From a virus (Duplodnaviria > Heunggongvirae > Uroviricota > Caudoviricetes): a DNA stretch of 39,262 nucleotides. The DNA lies in the IMG/VR virus record IMGVR_UViG_2513237200_000009; one strand, given 5' to 3'. A model generated the notes under the pieces. The model was not told the DNA's origin, made no database searches, and worked only from the letters and a program-made list of their open reading frames with translations. Shown here piece after piece: positions 2,621-39,262 of the stretch (position 1 is the stretch's first letter; the number at the start of each line of letters is the position of its first letter). Made by a program: the position numbers and the translations under genes.

Positions 2621-2733
2621 AACTGAAGTTGCCCTGAAAATGAAATTTTTTTGCACAACCGCAGAACTTTTCCGCAGGGCATCAGTCTTAATTAGTGCCA
2701 CTGCTTTTCTTTGATGTCCCCATTTTGTGGAGC

Positions 2734-2776
2734 CCATCAACCCCGCCATTTCGGTTCAAGGTTGATGGGTTTTTTG
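2734..2776 (+). terminator. rho-independent terminator-like hairpin near the host/prophage junction
   Basis: cccatcaacc ... ggttgatggg followed by tttttt. Confidence 0.4.
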
Positions 2777-2855
2777 TTGCCTGAAATTTAAGATGTTTAA
2801 AATCATGATGTTAGAAGCACTGTTTTTTAACGATGGCGACAAAATGGCGGCAGCG

Positions 2856-11818: not shown

Positions 11819-13251
<1,433 letters not shown>

Positions 13252-17146: not shown

Positions 17147-18070
17147 ATGACAACTAACACCAATACCCCAGAAGCAGCTGAGCAAGATAATATTGTCCCC
17201 ATGGATGCAATGAATGATCCCATCAATCCCCCACCTACAAAGAAGGAGAGGGATGAATACAAAAAAAAACAGCAAGAAAGAATTGGCAAATACGTCGTTG
17301 GTGGAACAGATTTGGGTGGAAACACCATAAGTAAAATTTATTCACGTGGGGATGAATATGTCATTTATGAAGTAGCCAATCTTCCGCCTCATGAGTCTAT
17401 GCTCGTGTTCATAGACTCAATCATTGAGGAGGATGACAGTAAGATTGATAGATATCATGCTTCAAAAGAGCACTTTGATGAGTTTATTTCACATTGCTAC
17501 AAATACAACTGCTCTTCTATTTATAAAAAAAGAGCAGCAACAGTTATGTCAGCAACAATACTTGGAAAAAATGATATAAACAAAAATAACTTCGCCGCAA
17601 TAAATAGAGACATTAAAAACGATTATGAAAACACAATGCTTGGAAGGAATTTATATCAATCAGGAGCCATAACTTTAGCATTGATATTCATCATCCTTGC
17701 ATTGATAACATATTTGGCTAGAGATTCTAATTTCATAAAAGCTAATCACTTTATTCCAGTGGTGTTATACGCCGCTTCCTTTGCTTCCATCGGGGGGTTT
17801 ATTTCTGTATCCCTAAAAATAAAAAGCCTCCATACAGACAGAGAACTAAAAAAGAAAACTTATTTCTTCTATGGTGCGGAGAGAATACTCCTTTCAATGA
17901 TGGCTGGCGTACTTGTATACTTTATGCTCAAGGGGAATATTATCTTCGGGTTTATGAATAATAGTAGTGACATCTCATTCTCCATTTATGTGATTTGTGC
18001 GCTTTCTGGATTCAGTGAAACATTGATACCGAATACATTGAGAAACCTTGAAACCAAATCCGAAATTTAA
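17147..18070 (+). CDS. hypothetical AT-rich membrane protein (cargo gene between V and S)
   Basis: polar N-terminal region then about four hydrophobic helices (AITLALIFIILALITYLA, FIPVVLYAASFASIGGFISVSL, ILLSMMAGVLVYFML, ISFSIYVICALSGFSETLI); opposite strand to the late genes; start uncertain (GTG at 17126 or ATG at 17147). Confidence 0.6.
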   Translation: MTTNTNTPEAAEQDNIVPMDAMNDPINPPPTKKERDEYKKKQQERIGKYVVGGTDLGGNTISKIYSRGDEYVIYEVANLPPHESMLVFIDSIIEEDDSKIDRYHASKEHFDEFISHCYKYNCSSIYKKRAATVMSATILGKNDINKNNFAAINRDIKNDYENTMLGRNLYQSGAITLALIFIILALITYLARDSNFIKANHFIPVVLYAASFASIGGFISVSLKIKSLHTDRELKKKTYFFYGAERILLSMMAGVLVYFMLKGNIIFGFMNNSSDISFSIYVICALSGFSETLIPNTLRNLETKSEI

Positions 18071-26882: not shown

Positions 26883-26912
26883 AACGCCTGCCTGAGCAGG
26901 CGTTCTTTCATT
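26883..26912. terminator. hairpin terminator between convergent Q and the DUF262 gene
   Basis: aacgcctgc ctga gcaggcgtt followed by ctttcattt. Confidence 0.55.
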
Positions 26913-28689
26913 TAAAACGTGTTGCAATATCTGCTGCTTCGATAACTGTTGCTTTTACGGTATTATCGCCAGCACGATAATAAATATCCCCATCATAACT
27001 AGAATAAGATGCTAGAAGTGGAATTGTAATAACTATAACTCCATAACCATAAAAGTCATTATAGTCAATCAAACTCACCACTTGTGATTTAAGAGGCTCA
27101 CTCAAAGCAGATTTTTTCAACTCATCGCAAAAACGTCTATAATATTCTTCCATTGATATGCCGAGTTTAATAGCTTCTCTTTTAACACCAACAACACTTC
27201 TCTCACCAACTACATGTGCATCTATATCATCAAGCTCTTTTACTCTACTTGTATCACTTGGTTTATCTGTTACACCAAGCAATAACTTACCAACTACACC
27301 GTTCTTGTTACCTTTACCGATGTTAGCAATAGCACAAATTGTGGAGAATATTTTCTCATGAATGCCATCATCAATAGTTCGCTCTCCGCCTAACATCAAC
27401 AAACCCTGTTTCAGTTCATAATTTGCAAGCTCTATTTCAGATCTTCGTAAAATATCCTCAATATCCACCGTATTGTGAGAATTATAGATATGACTGCTAT
27501 CGGCGCTATCAATAAAGTTATCTTTAATCAAGCCTATGATAGAATTAATATTCTTTCTTCTCTCTTCCCCACCAGTAGCAGATCTTTTAGTATCTAGTCG
27601 AGTGACTATATTATTAAGATTGTCTTTTACACCTTTATAATTATTAATCTTCTTATTTTCTTTAATGAGTAATTCATGAAAAGCAATAAATAACACAGCA
27701 AATATGGCTGGGAAAGCATTTGTAGTACGTTTAGTAAAGATTAAATCCCTGAGTTTAATTTCACCGTCACTATTACATACTTTTGTTATTTCCTGGATGC
27801 AGAATTTAAACTCTTCTGCAAATTTTCCTTCACCATAAACATTAATAGCAGAGCTAATACGACTATACTCTTCATCTTCATTATTATAAATCTGATCAAG
27901 CGCATCTTTGGAACGATCTATTAACTTACCTCCAACAATACAAGCTGCTATATCTGCAATGCATTGCTCATCCATACTGTCACGAAGGTCTGTTGAACGT
28001 AAGATCCCATGTTTTACCCAAAATACTTCTTCCGACTGAATTTGGTAACCATGTTTAGTTAGTGGCAAATCAATGCTAATAGACGGCATTTGCTCTAAAA
28101 GCAATATGTCGTCAGATACATCCCCCCTGATAGAACAGGCAATATCCCTAACCATATTTGAAAATTTATTTTGTATACCAGCCTGGCGCCTTTCTTGATC
28201 ACTAAGTCTATGCCCGTATGTATTAATTCTATCAAAAACATCATTTATTTCGTTCTCAGTCGCATTACGCATAATGGACATTGCAAGAGAATAATCCAAT
28301 AACTGAGTAACCTCACGCTGACTTAAAAGATTATCAGCTTTCACTGCAACAAACTTACCTTCATCCGCTCGATTTTTCGCTGTGGGAAAAGCGTCCAGAT
28401 TAAAACGTTTTCCATCAAGTGATTCATATCCTGTTTCGATGAAAGACATTATTGCATGTAATCTTTGTAGGCCATCAATTATTTCATATGTGCCAGGATC
28501 ATTTTCCCTTTCCGCGAGAAGAACTGCAGGAATTGGATATTTTTTTTGAATGGATTCAATTAATTTTTGTTTCTCTATTGCAGTCCAAACTAATTTTCGT
28601 TGATAACGTCTATTAACAAATATCTTACCTTCAGTAAACCATGAATAAATAGTTTGTATAGAAGTTGTTTGCGGTAATAGTTCAGCCAT
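26908..28689 (-). CDS. DUF262 (ParB-like nuclease / GmrSD N-terminal domain) protein, candidate defence gene
   Basis: 593 aa, AT-rich; N-terminal ...FVNRRYQRKLVWT...YEIIDGLQRLHAI... (DGxQR motif); C-terminal region unassigned. Confidence 0.75.
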   Translation of the reverse strand: MAELLPQTTSIQTIYSWFTEGKIFVNRRYQRKLVWTAIEKQKLIESIQKKYPIPAVLLAERENDPGTYEIIDGLQRLHAIMSFIETGYESLDGKRFNLDAFPTAKNRADEGKFVAVKADNLLSQREVTQLLDYSLAMSIMRNATENEINDVFDRINTYGHRLSDQERRQAGIQNKFSNMVRDIACSIRGDVSDDILLLEQMPSISIDLPLTKHGYQIQSEEVFWVKHGILRSTDLRDSMDEQCIADIAACIVGGKLIDRSKDALDQIYNNEDEEYSRISSAINVYGEGKFAEEFKFCIQEITKVCNSDGEIKLRDLIFTKRTTNAFPAIFAVLFIAFHELLIKENKKINNYKGVKDNLNNIVTRLDTKRSATGGEERRKNINSIIGLIKDNFIDSADSSHIYNSHNTVDIEDILRRSEIELANYELKQGLLMLGGERTIDDGIHEKIFSTICAIANIGKGNKNGVVGKLLLGVTDKPSDTSRVKELDDIDAHVVGERSVVGVKREAIKLGISMEEYYRRFCDELKKSALSEPLKSQVVSLIDYNDFYGYGVIVITIPLLASYSSYDGDIYYRAGDNTVKATVIEAADIATRFK

Positions 28690-35014: not shown

Positions 35015-35181
35015 TTGGACTTTCTCCGTTTCCTCGTGGTCAATTCAGACAGCAATTCATCTTGTGAACGGCACGGATGCCAGTGTTTACCATCCTCACC
35101 CATGATCCAGCCGTGACCGTAGTGCATTGCCGGGCTTTGTTTTACCAGCAGCGATGCAAATGATGGCTCTTTCGTCAGCAT
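34885..35181 (-). CDS. hypothetical early protein (extent uncertain; overlaps the next ORF in another frame)
   Basis: Met start just after the cII stop with SD GAGGTG; distal half looks non-protein-like. Confidence 0.3.
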   Translation of the reverse strand: MLTKEPSFASLLVKQSPAMHYGHGWIMGEDGKHWHPCRSQDELLSELTTRKRRKSKCMRQKMKWFITFVTEGRIIQYLKMICSVAIRRCRAMVATFSL

Positions 35182-35188
35182 AAGCACC

Positions 35189-35698
35189 TCACAGCAAACC
35201 GAATGAAGCACCAAGGCCAGTCACGGTATCCACCGCACTTGCCATTGCTGGATTCGCCTGTAGACGTGCCTGCAATGAAACTGCGGTCAGTGCCATCAAA
35301 CGCGTAACTGAATTAATACTGCTGATTACATCGCGGCGGCCTGCGGTAGTTTTCACTTCACCAGAGACAGCACCGGCAGCAACACGCCCGATCTCTGCTG
35401 TAGCATTCAGAACGTAGTACGGCATCTTCTCGCTTGCTACTTCGTTCACAGGGACACACGCCAGACAGTTAATCTGCGCCAGAAAGCCATCAACCAAAGT
35501 TGGGTCCTCGGTGAGATCTGTAAGCAGCCAGATCTCTGGCGCAGTGAGCTGGTGCGACTGCTCTGGGTTCAGCTTATTACGCAGGGTTTGAACGTTCATA
35601 CCTGCGCGTTCTGCCAGCTTCGACATGTTGTGACGCAAAGCGAAGGTCCGGCAGGCTTCATCAAAATGTCTTTGTTTGGAAACTTTATAATCAAACAT
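35189..35698 (-). CDS. cII: CII-like lysogeny-establishment transcription activator (186 CII family)
   Basis: MFDYKVSKQRHFDEACRTFALRHNMSKLAERAGMNVQTLRNKL...; 169 aa from the Met with best SD, matching 186 CII length. Confidence 0.7.
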   Translation of the reverse strand: MFDYKVSKQRHFDEACRTFALRHNMSKLAERAGMNVQTLRNKLNPEQSHQLTAPEIWLLTDLTEDPTLVDGFLAQINCLACVPVNEVASEKMPYYVLNATAEIGRVAAGAVSGEVKTTAGRRDVISSINSVTRLMALTAVSLQARLQANPAMASAVDTVTGLGASFGLL

Positions 35699-35763
35699 AG
35701 TTTTCATCTCCGAACTTATCGCAAAATCGAACCATAAAACAGATTTCGATAAGCAAAGTCTTT

Positions 35764-35967
35764 TCATGCCGAAAGTGCATCTACTGTCAAAGCAGCCATG
35801 TTAATCATGACTTTTTCACGCTTCTTATCTTTACGGAGACGATGCCGCGGAAGTCGGCCATCAGCCAACATGTCATTGATCGTATCAACCGGAAGGCCTG
35901 TGAGTTCGCTATAACGTTCAATTGTGACGTGTGGTGTGTTCAGAGTGATTGAAATGTTTGGGTTCAT
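35764..35967 (-). CDS. apl: Apl/Cox-like excisionase-repressor
   Basis: small HTH ORF divergent from cI; start ambiguous (ATG at 35967 or TTG at 36039). Confidence 0.5.
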   Translation of the reverse strand: MNPNISITLNTPHVTIERYSELTGLPVDTINDMLADGRLPRHRLRKDKKREKVMINMAALTVDALSA

Positions 35968-36113
35968 GGTGCAACATTCCTTCTTTAATTCGGCTTGTGG
36001 CGAGCCGTTGTTTATCGTGATTAGTTGTGAAGGCTCCAAAAGAAGACTTCGAGGTCAACTTTAAGATCGCTTTTGGAATCTGTCAATGCAATTTAGATTG
36101 TTTTGGAGGACTC

Positions 36114-36677
36114 TTGAATTTCAATAGCGGCGGAAAGAAAGTGATTGAACGTTTGGTTGAGGCGTATGGTTTCACCACTCGTCAGGCCCTTTGCGACCAC
36201 TTAGGGGTTTCAAAGAGCACAATGGCAACCCGCTACATGCGTGACATTTTTCCAGCAGATTGGGTACTTCAATGCGTTGTAGAAACTGGTACTTCAATTG
36301 ATTGGCTGGTATCAGGGAAAGGTGAGTTAAAAACCACAGCAGTCAACTCTTTGGTAGACGTTGAAACTCGCGAACTAAAAAATGGAGAGGCTATTGCACT
36401 TGGAACGCACAAGATTGATCCAGTCTTTCTTCTCAATGAAATAAAATCTGCATTAGCGATAAAAATTAACCAACATGTTTACATTTGTGACCGAGAAGAC
36501 ACTACCATTTCTGATGGTCAATGGTTGGTGGATATAGAAGGAAAACTGAGTATTAAAAAAATCAATTTGATACCAGTCAAAAGAGCAATGGTATCTGGGG
36601 ATGGTTTTTCATTTGAATGTGATATTAGTGATATAAAACCTATAGCTAAGGTTCATACCGTAATCAGTGAGGCTTAA
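36114..36677 (+). CDS. cI: immunity repressor CI (186 CI family)
   Basis: ..ERLVEAYGF...QWLVDIEG...FECDISDIK parallels remembered 186 CI; probable TTG start after GGAGGA. Confidence 0.75.
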   Translation: MNFNSGGKKVIERLVEAYGFTTRQALCDHLGVSKSTMATRYMRDIFPADWVLQCVVETGTSIDWLVSGKGELKTTAVNSLVDVETRELKNGEAIALGTHKIDPVFLLNEIKSALAIKINQHVYICDREDTTISDGQWLVDIEGKLSIKKINLIPVKRAMVSGDGFSFECDISDIKPIAKVHTVISEA

Positions 36678-38129
36678 ATGGATATTGAGTGGAATTGGGA
36701 TCAAGATGACGAATTTCTTGGTGAAAAATTACCTGCAGATACATTGGACAGAAAAAAGTACGCAAAATATCTTTATGAAATCTGTGCTGCACGCGGTGCT
36801 AAATCCAATCTCGTAGTTAACATTAATGCGGAATGGGGGGCTGGAAAAACATATTTTACTAAACGCCTAGCCAAGACAATTTCCCACTACCATCCCACAA
36901 TATACATTGATGCTTGGAAAGAAGATTTTACTGAAGACCCATTGCTCACAGTATTTAGTGGAATTAAAGATCAATTATCTGGTCAATCTGATAGCTTTAC
37001 TGCTTTAATCAATTCAACAATTGAGAATGTCGGTCCTTTGCTAAAAACAGCGGCACCAGTTATTATTGATGGATTAATACAAAAGTTCACAGGGGTTGAC
37101 TCCTTTTCTAACCTAACTAAAGACTTATCATCTAAGCTAATAGAAATACACGCAGAAAAATCAACGAGAATAGAGACAGTAAGAAAAGGAATTAGTCGTT
37201 GGGTTGAATTCATTGGGCGAAAAGATGGAATAGATAAAGAGCTTCCATTATTTATAATAATTGATGAACTTGATAGATGTAGGCCCGATTTTTCCATTAG
37301 TCTTTTAGAAATCTCCAAGCATATTTTTAACATCCCTGGCGTAGTATTTATTATTGCCACTGACACCCAACAATTACAGCATTCAATAAAAGTTATATAT
37401 GGCACTAATTTTTCAGCAAGTCATTATCTAAGCAGGTTTTTTGACCGTCGATTCCTTCTCCCAACGCCAGAATACAAAGACTTACTATTAACAAAAACAG
37501 GTGAAAACATAATTTCGGAATTTAATTCTTTACGTGAAAAATTAATTCCATGCCCACAAGACATCACATCATTTGTTAAAAATTGTTCATCCATATTATT
37601 ATCCATAAAAATAAACATCAGAGACGCTGTAAAAATATACGAGAGGCTAATAGACATACTTATCACGTCAAATAAAACATTTGACCCCAATCTAATGTTG
37701 ATATTATCTGCATTTAATTTCAAAGATCATGATGTATATGCAAAAATAAAATCAAAAGAAAAGCTAATTCCTAGTCCTCTCAACACAGAAATAGATTTAT
37801 CATTTGATTTATCTTATGAAACTACACAAGTCAAGTACTTCCAAGCTAATGGTGGTGTTTATAGTAATACGTATAAACAAAAAGAAATTTCAACAAATGT
37901 TCTATTTTACATAGAGACTGCTTGGAACACCTTAACGATAGCAAGAACCGCACCTGTTGGCACGCGACCTTACAATACTCCAGAACTTTGGATGGAAGGA
38001 GAGTTGTCTCAGGAGGAATCATTAGCGAACTTTCTCAAAATGGGATACGCCAAAAGCCGGTACAATGAAAGTGAACTAAAAATTCATCAATATTTCGATT
38101 TAATTGAACTGAGCACAACATTTGATTGA
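36678..38129 (+). CDS. KAP-family P-loop NTPase (PifA-like), candidate anti-phage/exclusion protein
   Basis: 483 aa, AT-rich; Walker A AEWGAGKT with the KAP-typical Trp, Walker B IIIDELDRC; ATG immediately follows the cI stop (TAAATG). Confidence 0.8.
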   Translation: MDIEWNWDQDDEFLGEKLPADTLDRKKYAKYLYEICAARGAKSNLVVNINAEWGAGKTYFTKRLAKTISHYHPTIYIDAWKEDFTEDPLLTVFSGIKDQLSGQSDSFTALINSTIENVGPLLKTAAPVIIDGLIQKFTGVDSFSNLTKDLSSKLIEIHAEKSTRIETVRKGISRWVEFIGRKDGIDKELPLFIIIDELDRCRPDFSISLLEISKHIFNIPGVVFIIATDTQQLQHSIKVIYGTNFSASHYLSRFFDRRFLLPTPEYKDLLLTKTGENIISEFNSLREKLIPCPQDITSFVKNCSSILLSIKINIRDAVKIYERLIDILITSNKTFDPNLMLILSAFNFKDHDVYAKIKSKEKLIPSPLNTEIDLSFDLSYETTQVKYFQANGGVYSNTYKQKEISTNVLFYIETAWNTLTIARTAPVGTRPYNTPELWMEGELSQEESLANFLKMGYAKSRYNESELKIHQYFDLIELSTTFD

Positions 38130-38158
38130 TGTATGAGTTCACCTAAACATACATTGAC

Positions 38159-38178
38159 CACTGTTTAAACATACAGTT
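38159..38178. promoter_or_regulatory. LexA-box-like palindrome upstream of int
   Basis: caCTGTttaaacatACAGtt fits CTGT-N8-ACAG; could be a chance match. Confidence 0.35.
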
Positions 38179-38184
38179 AAATTT

Positions 38185-38209
38185 AGCCCTCAGACATGAG
38201 GGCTTTTTT
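38185..38209 (+). terminator. rho-independent terminator abutting the int start codon
   Basis: agccctc agacat gagggct followed by ttttt, then ATG of int. Confidence 0.5.
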
Positions 38210-39262
38210 ATGGCAGTACGAAAACTCGACACAGGTAAATGGATATGCGAATGCTACCCCGCCGGGCGCAGCGGACGGCGTGTGCGTAAGCAATTCGCCA
38301 CCAAAGGTGAAGCGTTAGCATTTGAACGGCACATAATGGAGGAAACTGAAGCTAAGCCCTGGCTGGGTGAATCGGTAGATCGCCGAACTCTGAAAGACGT
38401 CGTTGAACTCTGGTTCAAACTGCACGGCAAATCTCTGACCGCTGGCGAGCATGTTTACGACAAGCTGATCCTGATGGTCGAAGCTCTCGGAAATCCCCTC
38501 GCCACCGATTTAACATCCAAAATGTTCGCGCACTATCGCGATAAACGCCTGACAGGAGAGATCTACTTCAGCGAGAAATGGAAGAAAGGAGCAAGCCCGG
38601 TCACTATTAATCTGGAGCAAAGCTATCTAAGTAGTGTTTTTAGCGAACTATCCCGCCTGGGCGAATGGTCGTATCCGAACCCACTGGAGAACATGCGAAA
38701 ATTCACCATCGCAGAAAAAGAGATGGCATGGCTTACCCATGAGCAGATTGTTGAATTGCTGGCTGATTGCAAACGTCAGGACCCAATTCTGGCACTGGTA
38801 GTTAAGATATGCTTAAGCACAGGCGCACGCTGGCGTGAAGCCGTAAATCTTACCCGCTCGCAGGTGACCAAATACCGAATTACCTTTGTAAGAACGAAGG
38901 GGAAGAAAAACAGAAGCATCCCTATCAGTAAAGAGCTTTACGAAGAGATCATGGCGCTTGATGGGTTCAATTTCTTCACAGACTGCTATTTTCAATTTTT
39001 ATCCGTGATGGAAAAAACGTCTATCGTGCTGCCTCGCGGTCAACTGACACACGTTCTGCGCCATACGTTTGCGGCGCACTTCATGATGTCGGGTGGAAAC
39101 ATCCTGGCCTTACAAAAAATTCTCGGACACCACGATATAAAAATGACTATGCGTTATGCGCATCTGGCACCGGATCATCTGGAAACGGCGCTCCGTTTCA
39201 ATCCTCTGGCAACATTGCCAAGTGGCGACAAAGTGGCGGCAGCGGTTGGCATTACCCCGTAA
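38210..39262 (+). CDS. int: tyrosine integrase (186/P2-type)
   Basis: 350 aa; MAVRKLDTGKWICECYP... and C-terminal ...LTHVLRHTFAAHFMMSGGNILALQKILGHHDIKMTMRYAHL catalytic region. Confidence 0.9.
   Translation: MAVRKLDTGKWICECYPAGRSGRRVRKQFATKGEALAFERHIMEETEAKPWLGESVDRRTLKDVVELWFKLHGKSLTAGEHVYDKLILMVEALGNPLATDLTSKMFAHYRDKRLTGEIYFSEKWKKGASPVTINLEQSYLSSVFSELSRLGEWSYPNPLENMRKFTIAEKEMAWLTHEQIVELLADCKRQDPILALVVKICLSTGARWREAVNLTRSQVTKYRITFVRTKGKKNRSIPISKELYEEIMALDGFNFFTDCYFQFLSVMEKTSIVLPRGQLTHVLRHTFAAHFMMSGGNILALQKILGHHDIKMTMRYAHLAPDHLETALRFNPLATLPSGDKVAAAVGITP

What the first reader, a model, noticed from the sequence alone, without database searches (positions are those of the whole stretch)
36678..38129. 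PifA-type KAP NTPase inserted in the lysogeny operon between cI and int
The 483-aa ORF is AT-rich against GC-rich flanks. It carries the KAP signatures: Walker A AEWGAGKT with the typical Trp, and Walker B IIIDELDRC. The KAP family is named for Kidins220/ARMS and PifA, the F-plasmid protein that excludes phage T7. The gene starts at the cI stop codon (TAAATG) and is followed by a terminator, so it should be transcribed with the repressor in lysogens, which is the usual arrangement for prophage exclusion genes. No partner gene or obvious transmembrane segment is visible, suggesting a soluble single-gene system. 186/P2 normally have cI/C next to int, so this is an insertion.
Basis: partly seen in the sequence, partly recalled or inferred. 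Interest (0 to 1): 0.85.

Follow-up and report, generated by a model that had tools for sequence, protein, structure and literature searches.

The report
Prophage KAP ATPase, candidate anti-phage gene
A 186-like prophage of E. coli W carries, between its repressor and integrase genes, a soluble KAP-type ATPase from an untested candidate anti-phage family (PADLOC PDC-S20), in a slot where sister prophages carry the proven defence nuclease SNIPE; it is a good candidate for testing but not a new kind of system.

Summary
ORF 36678-38129 (+) encodes a 483-aa KAP P-loop NTPase (Pfam 8e-36) with intact Walker A and B motifs. It has no membrane segment and 34% GC. It starts directly after the cI stop codon (TAA-ATG) and lies upstream of int.

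The window is the 186-like prophage of E. coli W, integrated at rybB/rcdA.

The cI-int junction is a cargo hotspot:
- Phage 186 and others have cI abutting int.
- About 1,100 E. coli genomes carry this int type.
- Matches to the alternative cargos: a 63-aa ORF alone (~590 genomes), SNIPE/PD-lambda-1 (163), a second PDC-S20 subtype (34), this KAP (11, plus 1 diverged).
- Homologues down to 36% identity keep the cI-KAP-int order in Klebsiella, Serratia and Citrobacter.

The NTPase half is conserved. The C-terminal half diverges 3-5 times faster and has no known fold or catalytic motif.

The "terminator" belongs to the conserved int leader, not to the cargo.

Most likely this is a lysogen-expressed single-gene anti-phage ATPase. 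The function is untested and the effector step is unknown. I class it as a new member of a known kind.

The parts
36027..36677 (+). cI immunity repressor of the 186 type. The true start is probably internal, near 36138.
   Evidence: Pfam Phage_CI_repr 8e-30 and Phage_CI_C 7e-24. RefSeq annotates it as WP_000646893.1, 'phage repressor protein CI'.
36669..36680 (+). cI/KAP junction: GAGG Shine-Dalgarno, cI stop TAA (36675-36677), then the KAP ATG (36678-36680).
   Evidence: Read directly from the sequence. There is no room for a promoter or terminator, so co-transcription with cI is inferred.
36678..38129 (+). KAP-family P-loop NTPase, 483 aa, of the PADLOC candidate family PDC-S20. 100% identical at the nucleotide level to the E. 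coli W gene annotated WP_000350737.1.
   Evidence: ORF. Pfam KAP_NTPase 8e-36. PADLOC PDLC04959 4.2e-82. 100% nucleotide identity in E. coli W. AlphaFold model with pLDDT 83.
36828..36851 (+). Walker A motif AEWGAGKT (residues 51-58).
   Evidence: W53, G54, G56 and K57 are invariant in 38 homologues.
37251..37286 (+). Walker B and KAP signature FIIIDELDRCRP (residues 192-203).
   Evidence: D196-P203 is invariant in 38 homologues.
37473..38126 (+). Fast-evolving C-terminal half (residues 266-483). It has an AAA+ lid-like helical bundle (266-360) and an alpha/beta domain with no known fold (about 370-483), and ends in the conserved tail YFDLIELSTTFD.
38130..38209 (+). Conserved int leader. It holds a promoter-like TTGACC-N18-TAAATT (38154-38183) and the hairpin AGCCCTCA-GACA-TGAGGGCT (38185-38204), followed by T6. 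The 3' arm of the hairpin contains the int Shine-Dalgarno sequence.
   Evidence: z = -3.45 for the fold of 38125-38230, which contains this hairpin. It is conserved in 7 prophages or phages, including the cargo-less ESSI2_ev040, with compensatory stem changes. The T-run is absent in two of them.
38210..39262 (+). P2/186-type tyrosine integrase. It marks the right edge of the hotspot and the prophage end next to rcdA.
   Evidence: Pfam Int_N 2e-32 and Phage_integrase 7e-22. About 1,121 of 5,426 E. coli genomes carry this int type.
35189..35967 (-). Divergent lytic-side genes: the cII (CP76) regulator (35189-35698) and an apl/cox-like small gene (35764-35967).
   Evidence: Pfam Phage_CP76 3.6e-43. 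RefSeq annotation. The layout matches the annotated 186 switch region.

Best explanation
The gene is defence cargo (a moron) carried in the repressor-integrase hotspot of a 186-like prophage.

**Expression (inferred).** It is transcribed with cI from the lysogenic promoter and translated from its own Shine-Dalgarno sequence directly after the cI stop. Lysogens would therefore make it constitutively.

**The protein (shown by sequence and model).** It is a soluble KAP/AAA+-like NTPase of the PDC-S20 family. The hydrolysis site looks complete: Walker A K57, Walker B D196/E197, sensor-1 region T228-T230, and conserved arginines R253/R257/R258 and R315. It is fused to a rapidly diversifying C-terminal domain with no catalytic signature.

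**Proposed mechanism (inferred, not shown).** The variable C-terminal domain recognises a component of an infecting phage or other mobile element. Recognition switches the NTPase into an oligomeric, RdrA-like ring state. That state blocks the infection, either by acting directly on or sequestering the phage target, or by an abortive, PifA-like cell-level effect.

Because no enzymatic effector domain or partner gene is present, the output step is the least certain part.
For: **Family assignment**
- Pfam KAP_NTPase 8e-36.
- PADLOC PDC-S20 4.2e-82 over residues 20-411.
- PDC families are untested candidates predicted by embedding in BREX, DISARM and type I RM systems.

**Fold**

**Hotspot logic**
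- Flanks are conserved (int 80-90% nucleotide identity) while the contents vary.
- Contents seen: nothing in 186, PHB48 and ESSI2; SNIPE/PD-lambda-1, PADLOC 3e-120, which is experimentally validated (PMC13190303); and a second PDC-S20 subtype, 7e-171.
- SNIPE and a KAP lie in tandem in one viral contig (L161).
- An AbiC-like gene lies next to the KAP in Aeromonas.

**Conservation of position**
- Homologues at 85%, 67%, 37% and 36% identity in Citrobacter, Serratia and Klebsiella all lie cI-KAP-int.
- 28 of the 28 closest IMG/VR loci do the same.

**Selection**
- All homologous ORFs examined are intact.
- Omega is about 0.05 in the N half and 0.14 in the last domain for the closest pair. dN in the C half is 3-5 times that of the N half.

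**Retention**
- The gene is kept in decayed Enterobacter prophage remnants where most phage genes are gone.

**Precedents**
- Single-gene KAP defences are known: PifA, tmn, Reve and EF_KAP.
Against: - No member of PDC-S20 was found to have been tested. The literature search for 'PDC-S20' and for the accession found nothing.
- There is no nuclease, TIR, SIR2, deaminase or membrane-effector domain and no partner gene, so the way infection would be stopped is unexplained.
- Immediate neighbours of distant relatives outside prophages are mostly housekeeping genes. Only a few are RM or MADS genes.
- The gene is rare in E. coli (12 of 5,426 genomes, several of them derivatives of strain W) and absent from isolated phages in INPHARED.
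- At 34% GC the gene could be silenced by H-NS.
- Transcription from pL was not measured.
Confidence: 0.68

Rival explanations
1. It is a true PifA-type exclusion protein. It would be a functional equivalent of F-plasmid PifA, aborting T7-like infections at the membrane when triggered by T7 gp1.2 or the capsid protein.
For: Both are single-gene KAP NTPases on mobile elements. The PADLOC PifA model matches at 3.8e-12. PifA also lacks classic inserted membrane helices (from my own knowledge).
Against: - The match covers only the NTPase domain (profile positions 22-261 of 720).
- The protein is 483 aa and has an unrelated C-terminal half.
- PDC-S20 models fit about 70 orders of magnitude better.
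- Trigger specificity cannot be read from sequence.
Confidence: 0.08
2. It serves the prophage's own life cycle rather than immunity. As an ATPase co-expressed with cI and int, it could modulate lysogeny maintenance, integration or excision, or control of the P4-type satellites that exploit P2/186 helpers.
For: The gene lies inside the lysogenic operon between cI and int. That position is conserved across genera. AAA+, ORC-like and MuB/TnsC-like folds appear among the structural neighbours.
Against: - Phage 186 and about half of the E. coli prophages with this int manage without it.
- The slot alternatively holds an unrelated validated defence nuclease.
- The gene outlives the phage in Enterobacter remnants that lack cI, and in one case int.
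- Relatives occur outside prophages, some embedded in type I RM loci.
Confidence: 0.1
3. It is selfish or neutral AT-rich cargo with no benefit to host or phage, or an addiction-like toxic ATPase. It would persist only because the hotspot tolerates insertions.
For: It is rare in E. coli. The base composition looks foreign. No function has been shown.
Against: - Purifying selection is strong on the NTPase half (omega about 0.05), with synonymous sites saturated.
- ORFs are intact from 100% down to 33% identity.
- The catalytic motifs are invariant.
- The family is large: 5,290 clusters at E <= 1e-30.
Confidence: 0.1

Closest known systems
PADLOC PDC-S20 (single-gene phage defence candidate; Payne et al., guilt-by-embedding set)
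   Same: The match is essentially full-length (PDLC04959, 4.2e-82, residues 20-411 against profile positions 18-413 of 464). Both are single-gene, about 450-500 aa, soluble KAP NTPases. A second subtype (PDLC04956, 7e-171) occupies the same cI-int slot in other E. coli prophages.
   Different: PDC-S20 is only a computational candidate with no reported phenotype. The last ~70 residues lie outside the matched part of the model. The candidates were defined by embedding in BREX, DISARM and RM loci, not by prophage context.
RdrA, the KAP/AAA+ ATPase of the RADAR defence system (PDB 8fnt, 8fnu, 8hr8)
   Different: RdrA is about 800-900 aa and works with the adjacent RdrB adenosine deaminase. Here no partner gene exists. 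There is no sequence-level match to any RdrA model at E <= 1. TM-scores are only 0.37-0.44.
PifA of the F plasmid (T7 exclusion)
   Same: Both have a KAP NTPase domain, are single genes on a mobile element, and PifA has an abortive-infection precedent.
   Different: Only the NTPase domain aligns (3.8e-12). PifA is about 720 aa with a different C-terminal region. The trigger and phenotype here are unknown.
tmn, QatA, EF_KAP and Reve (other KAP NTPases with shown or proposed anti-phage roles)
   Same: All are KAP P-loop domains in defence contexts. Several are single-gene, with a C-terminal region of unknown function that is needed for defence.
   Different: - tmn and EF_KAP have membrane helices in or beside the NTPase domain. 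This protein has none, and only 3 of 83 relatives do.
- QatA matches only around Walker B (36 bits against a cutoff of 600), and the QatBCD partners are absent.
- Reve is reported as not detected by PADLOC, whereas this protein is.
Prophage defence hotspots of P2-like phages and relatives (Rousset 2022; Vassallo 2022; NAR 2026 gkag898)
   Same: Conserved flanks hold interchangeable AT-rich cargo. Rousset et al. describe a cI-integrase hotspot in Vibrio K139-like phages. The 2026 study lists an integrase-to-primase region holding 8% of P2 defence systems.
   Different: In the papers I could search, the E. coli 186-type cI-int slot at rybB/rcdA, with its SNIPE, PDC-S20 and small-ORF alleles, is not itemised. 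Here the cargo lies inside the lysogenic operon itself.

Membership tests
KAP family P-loop NTPase (Pfam PF07693) | Profile match above the curated threshold | tested here: met
   124.2 bits against a cutoff of 20, E 8e-36, residues 25-267.
KAP family P-loop NTPase (Pfam PF07693) | Walker A with conserved Trp (xWGxGKT/S) and Walker B hhhhDELDR | tested here: met
   AEWGAGKT at 51-58 and FIIIDELDRCRP at 192-203. Both are invariant in 38 homologues.
KAP family P-loop NTPase (Pfam PF07693) | Membrane helices inserted between Walker A and Walker B. This is typical of many prokaryotic KAPs but not universal. | tested here: not met
   The maximum 19-residue Kyte-Doolittle average is 1.53, and it lies outside the insert. 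The insert is helical and soluble. Only 3 of 83 relatives reach 1.6 in the insert. This is a crude hydropathy test only.
PADLOC PDC-S20 candidate defence family | Near-full-length match to a PDC-S20 profile, as a stand-alone gene | tested here: met
   PDLC04959 at 4.2e-82 (275 bits), with three further PDC-S20 models at 1e-30 to 1e-48. No conserved neighbour.
PADLOC PDC-S20 candidate defence family | Demonstrated anti-phage activity | not testable with these tools
   PDC systems are described as untested candidates. No paper mentions PDC-S20 or WP_000350737.
PifA (F-plasmid T7 exclusion) | Full-length homology to PifA (about 720 aa), including the C-terminal region | tested here: not met
   The PifA profile is matched only at positions 22-261 of 720, E 3.8e-12. 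The protein is 483 aa.
PifA (F-plasmid T7 exclusion) | Abortive exclusion of T7 triggered by gp1.2 or gp10 | not testable with these tools
   This needs infection assays.
RADAR (RdrA-RdrB) | RdrA-like ATPase fold | tested here: met
RADAR (RdrA-RdrB) | Adjacent RdrB adenosine deaminase, and sequence membership in RdrA | tested here: not met
   The neighbours are cI and int. No PADLOC RdrA hit at E <= 1.
Qat system (QatA) | QatA equivalog score and the QatBCD partner genes | tested here: not met
   NCBIfam QatA scores 36 bits against a cutoff of 600. The PADLOC QatA match (3e-8) covers only residues 138-249. No partner genes are present.
Prophage defence hotspot (variable cargo between conserved phage genes) | The same flanks hold different or no cargo in related elements, including at least one validated defence system | tested here: met
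   - Empty: 186, PHB48, ESSI2.
- SNIPE/PD-lambda-1.
- Second PDC-S20 subtype.
- Small ORF only.
- Genome counts.

The most novel reading that the evidence does not exclude
A soluble KAP ATPase with no effector domain and no partner gene may be a complete immune system in itself. Its fast-evolving, fold-novel C-terminal alpha/beta domain would sense a phage component. An RdrA-like ring would then stop infection by a mechanism not yet described for KAP proteins, such as ATP-driven remodelling or sequestration of a phage protein, nucleotide exhaustion, or recruitment of a host factor. If so, the cI-int slot of 186-like prophages would offer natural allelic series (two PDC-S20 subtypes, SNIPE, tandem arrays) for mapping specificity.
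Probability: 0.2. Interest if true: 0.6.

Novelty: new member of a known kind. Interest (0 to 1): 0.35.

Why it matters
If the gene protects lysogens, it would give the first phenotype for the large PDC-S20 family. That family has about 5,300 clusters at 50% identity with E <= 1e-30.

It would also add a soluble, partner-less KAP ATPase to the set of single-gene defences. The conserved motor and hyper-variable C-terminal domain invite trigger-mapping and domain-swap experiments.

The work also documents the repressor-integrase junction of a very common E. coli prophage type (about 20% of complete genomes) as a defence-cargo slot expressed from the lysogenic operon. This helps in predicting the phage resistance of lysogens. 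E. coli W, an industrial strain, is one of them.

None of this would overturn current ideas. KAP defences and prophage hotspots are both established.

Tried and rejected
- **GIY-YIG partner.** In Enterobacter remnants a GIY_YIG_2 gene precedes the KAP. tblastn found it in no other locus, so it is not a general partner.
- **Membrane-inserted KAP like tmn.** Rejected by hydropathy for this protein and for 80 of 83 relatives.
- **Positive selection on the C-terminal domain.** Nei-Gojobori estimates are unusable because dS is saturated in every available pair. Only the higher dN and an omega still below 1 can be stated.
- **Identity with the validated P4-hotspot KAP 'Reve'.** The paper says Reve escapes PADLOC, so it is probably a different family.
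- **Solved-structure relatives by sequence.** None at E <= 0.1.
- **Defence-island enrichment around distant relatives.** It is weak. A few neighbours are type I RM, ResIII or MADS genes and the rest are housekeeping genes.
- **Rfam.** No RNA family matched in 35.7-38.4 kb.
- **Isolated phages carrying the gene.** None above 33% identity in INPHARED.
- **Literature.** No hits for 'PDC-S20' or the RefSeq accession.
- **The pL promoter.** It was not located by the consensus scan. Only a leftward pR-like site at 36086-36058 was found.

Full report
**1. The observation**

The ORF at 36678-38129 (+) is real and encodes 483 aa. Walker A (AEWGAGKT, residues 51-58) and Walker B (FIIIDELDRCRP, residues 192-203) are present. 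Pfam KAP_NTPase matches at 8e-36, 124 bits against a cutoff of 20.

The upstream ORF is a 186-type CI repressor (Phage_CI_repr and Phage_CI_C). The downstream ORF is a P2/186-type integrase. A cII (CP76) gene and an apl-like gene lie divergently upstream. The cI stop codon TAA (36675-36677) is followed directly by the ATG, and a GAGG lies 5 nt upstream.

GC content is 34.2% for the ORF, 49.5% for int and 50.2% for the whole window. The cI gene is also AT-rich at 39.8%. No 19-residue window reaches a Kyte-Doolittle average (KD19) of 1.6.

**2. Where the window comes from**

The gene is 100% identical in E. coli W and ten other complete E. coli genomes, and 70.7% identical in one further genome. 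That is 12 of 5,426 genomes in total. RefSeq calls it "KAP family P-loop NTPase fold protein", WP_000350737.1.

The window is the reverse complement of NC_017635.1, roughly 959.5-998.7 kb. It covers a 186-like prophage lying between ybjL/rybB and rcdA, and corresponds to an IMG/VR prophage contig.

**3. Family and fold**

- PADLOC's best hit is the candidate family PDC-S20 (PDLC04959, 4.2e-82, residues 20-411).
- PifA (3.8e-12) and QatA (3e-8) match only within the NTPase domain.
- NCBIfam QatA scores 36 bits against a cutoff of 600.
- PHROGs places the protein in phrog_8614, "unknown function".
- PDC families are 145 untested candidates derived by "guilt-by-embedding" in BREX, DISARM and type I RM loci. 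I found no paper naming PDC-S20 or the accession.
- An AlphaFold2 model built from 38 homologues has pLDDT 83.
- No PDB chain matches by sequence.

**4. Conservation pattern**

The word-indexed search gave 1,427 hits at E <= 1e-5 (among the 8,000 candidates scored), with a continuous identity gradient from 100% to 33% in Enterobacterales. The exhaustive profile search found 5,290 clusters (at 50% identity) with E <= 1e-30.

The invariant columns cover the nucleotide site:
- W53, G54, G56, K57
- D196 through P203
- T228, D229, T230, Q232, L233, Q234, H235
- R253, R258 and R315

The N half keeps 43-92% identity. The C half drops to 18-81%. dN is 3-5 times higher in the C half. dS is saturated in all pairs. 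In the closest pair omega is about 0.05 in the N half and 0.14 in the last domain. The C-terminal domain has no conserved catalytic-looking constellation, only a conserved tail (Y472, E477).

This is the pattern of a conserved motor joined to a diversifying recognition module.

**5. The cI-int junction is a cargo hotspot**

Phages with no cargo:
- In phage 186 the cI stop overlaps the int start.
- In Salmonella phage PHB48 cI and int are annotated end-to-start at one shared coordinate.
- In ESSI2_ev040 they are 78 bp apart.

Phages with other cargo:
- Escherichia phage 813R9 and Klebsiella phage KP12 have an int more than 92% identical at the nucleotide level to the one in the window. They carry instead a 558-aa DUF4041/T5orf172 protein.
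- That protein matches PD-lambda-1 at 3e-120. PD-lambda-1 is SNIPE, the experimentally validated membrane nuclease (PMC13190303).

Counts among 5,426 complete E. coli genomes, all from megablast matches. Slot position was confirmed only for the six sampled loci:

| Feature | Genomes |
|---|---|
| This int type | 1,121 |
| Spacer with only a 63-aa ORF | about 590 |
| SNIPE-like gene | 163 |
| 60-aa ORF plus a 443-aa second PDC-S20 subtype | 34 |
| This KAP | 11, plus 1 diverged |

The second PDC-S20 subtype matches PDLC04956 at 7e-171 and is 31% identical to the window protein.

Other arrangements seen:
- One viral contig has cI-SNIPE-KAP-int in tandem (L161).
- Others insert a BRCT-domain or DUF2207-like gene between cI and the KAP.
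- An Aeromonas prophage has an S24-type repressor, then the KAP, then an AbiC-like gene, then int.

All cargo alleles are AT-rich (31-37% GC). The int flank stays 80-90% identical, while cI (57-77%) and the KAP (49-84%) vary.

**6. Persistence of the arrangement**

- KAP homologues at 85% and 67% identity (Citrobacter), 37% (Serratia) and 36% (Klebsiella) all lie cI-KAP-int in 186-like prophages.
- So do all 28 of the closest IMG/VR loci.
- In Enterobacter the KAP survives in remnants at the same chromosomal site. Those remnants retain only a GIY-YIG gene, the KAP, and a truncated int or an ars operon.
- More distant relatives sit beside P2 gpD/gpU tail genes, which is another P2 edge.
- Others are isolated chromosomal genes with heterogeneous neighbours. 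A few of these are embedded next to type I RM specificity, ResIII or MADS genes.
- No conserved partner gene exists.

**7. The "terminator"**

The hairpin at 38185-38204 plus T6 is a plausible intrinsic terminator. It lies in a ~75-nt int leader that begins right after the cargo stop codon. That leader is conserved in prophages with KAP, with SNIPE and with no cargo.

The stem shows compensatory changes (GCCCTC/GAGGGC against CCCCT/AGGGG). The T-run is missing in two members. The 3' arm holds the int Shine-Dalgarno sequence. The hairpin is therefore an int-control element. Cargo is inserted between the cI stop and this leader, so it remains inside the pL/pE transcription unit annotated for 186.

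Co-transcription with cI is a sound inference but was not measured.

**8. Interpretation**

The best-supported reading is a lysogen-expressed, single-gene anti-phage (or anti-mobile-element) KAP ATPase.

- Shown: family membership, an intact catalytic site, solubility, the hotspot context with a validated defence allele, purifying selection, the fast-evolving C-terminus, and retention in remnants.
- Inferred: expression from pL, sensing by the C-terminal domain, ring assembly like RdrA, and the way infection is stopped.

The lack of any effector domain makes the output step open.

Rivals are given lower weight for the reasons listed under each:
- a true PifA orthologue
- a role in the prophage's own lysogeny or satellite control
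- neutral or selfish cargo

**9. Novelty and score**

KAP NTPases in defence are known: PifA, tmn, QatA, RdrA, EF_KAP and Reve. Prophage hotspots are also known, including a cI-integrase hotspot in Vibrio K139-like phages and an integrase-primase region in P2-like phages. The family itself is already catalogued as a candidate.

This is therefore a new, untested member of a known kind. It is a sensible experimental target with a convenient natural allelic series, but not a surprise. Interest is 0.35.

Noticed in passing
window 38130-38209 (also L002, L003, L004, L094, L097, L098): A ~75-nt leader upstream of int is conserved whatever the cargo. It has an invariant ACATTGA..CAGT.AA block that resembles a sigma-70 promoter (TTGACC-N18-TAAATT). 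It also has a hairpin with compensatory stem changes whose 3' arm contains the int Shine-Dalgarno sequence. This may be a translational or termination control of Int. Phage 186 itself lacks it, because there cI overlaps int.
   Followed up: partly
window 26908-28689 (-): A second AT-rich cargo gene lies in the classic P2 gpA-portal hotspot. It is a 593-aa GmrSD_N-domain protein (Pfam 1.6e-22), with PADLOC hits to NsnA (8e-31) and PD-T4-2_A (2e-18). The prophage therefore carries at least two defence-like cargos.
   Followed up: partly
window 17147-18070 (+): A 307-aa ORF in a 36.5% GC island lies between the virion-morphogenesis and baseplate V genes. It has no Pfam or PADLOC hit. It is possibly a third cargo gene of unknown function.
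   Followed up: partly
window 12066-13243 (+); 35026-35181 (-): An IS3-family element sits in the tail-fibre / invertible-segment region; the Rfam isrC hit at 12063-12185 lies at its edge. The fil gene is annotated as a pseudogene. The E. coli W prophage may therefore be defective.
   Followed up: no
window 2700-2778 (+) and L001 10660-10673: The RybB sRNA gene (Rfam, 105 bits) abuts the ogr end of the prophage. Its last 14 nt (ATGGGTTTTTTGTT, window 2765-2778) are repeated about 75 bp beyond the int stop. The prophage therefore appears to integrate into the 3' end / terminator of rybB and to regenerate it.
   Followed up: partly
L086-L093 (Enterobacter kobei, E. bugandensis and related): At the same ybjL-rcdA site only a two-gene remnant persists: a GIY_YIG_2 protein (199-206 aa) plus the KAP. 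It is followed by a truncated int or an arsRBC operon. The GIY-YIG gene occurs in no other KAP locus examined.
   Followed up: yes
L161 3210-6434; L124-L126 and L145 (IMG/VR contigs): Multi-gene fillings of the cI-int slot occur. One is a SNIPE-like gene followed by a KAP. Others are small BRCT-domain proteins (161-294 aa) or a DUF2207-like membrane protein immediately upstream of the KAP.
   Followed up: partly
L164-L193 (IMG/VR contigs): A distant KAP subfamily (about 35% identity in the NTPase domain only) sits next to P2 gpD, gpU and the tape-measure gene on the opposite strand. That is a different edge of P2-like prophages, which suggests repeated capture of KAP genes by this phage group.
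   Followed up: partly
NZ_CP026085.1 and NZ_CM135829.1: Two assemblies labelled E. coli 'DH5alpha' carry this gene at 100% identity to strain W, and one of them also the adjacent int. This suggests the strains or records are mislabelled W derivatives.
   Followed up: no
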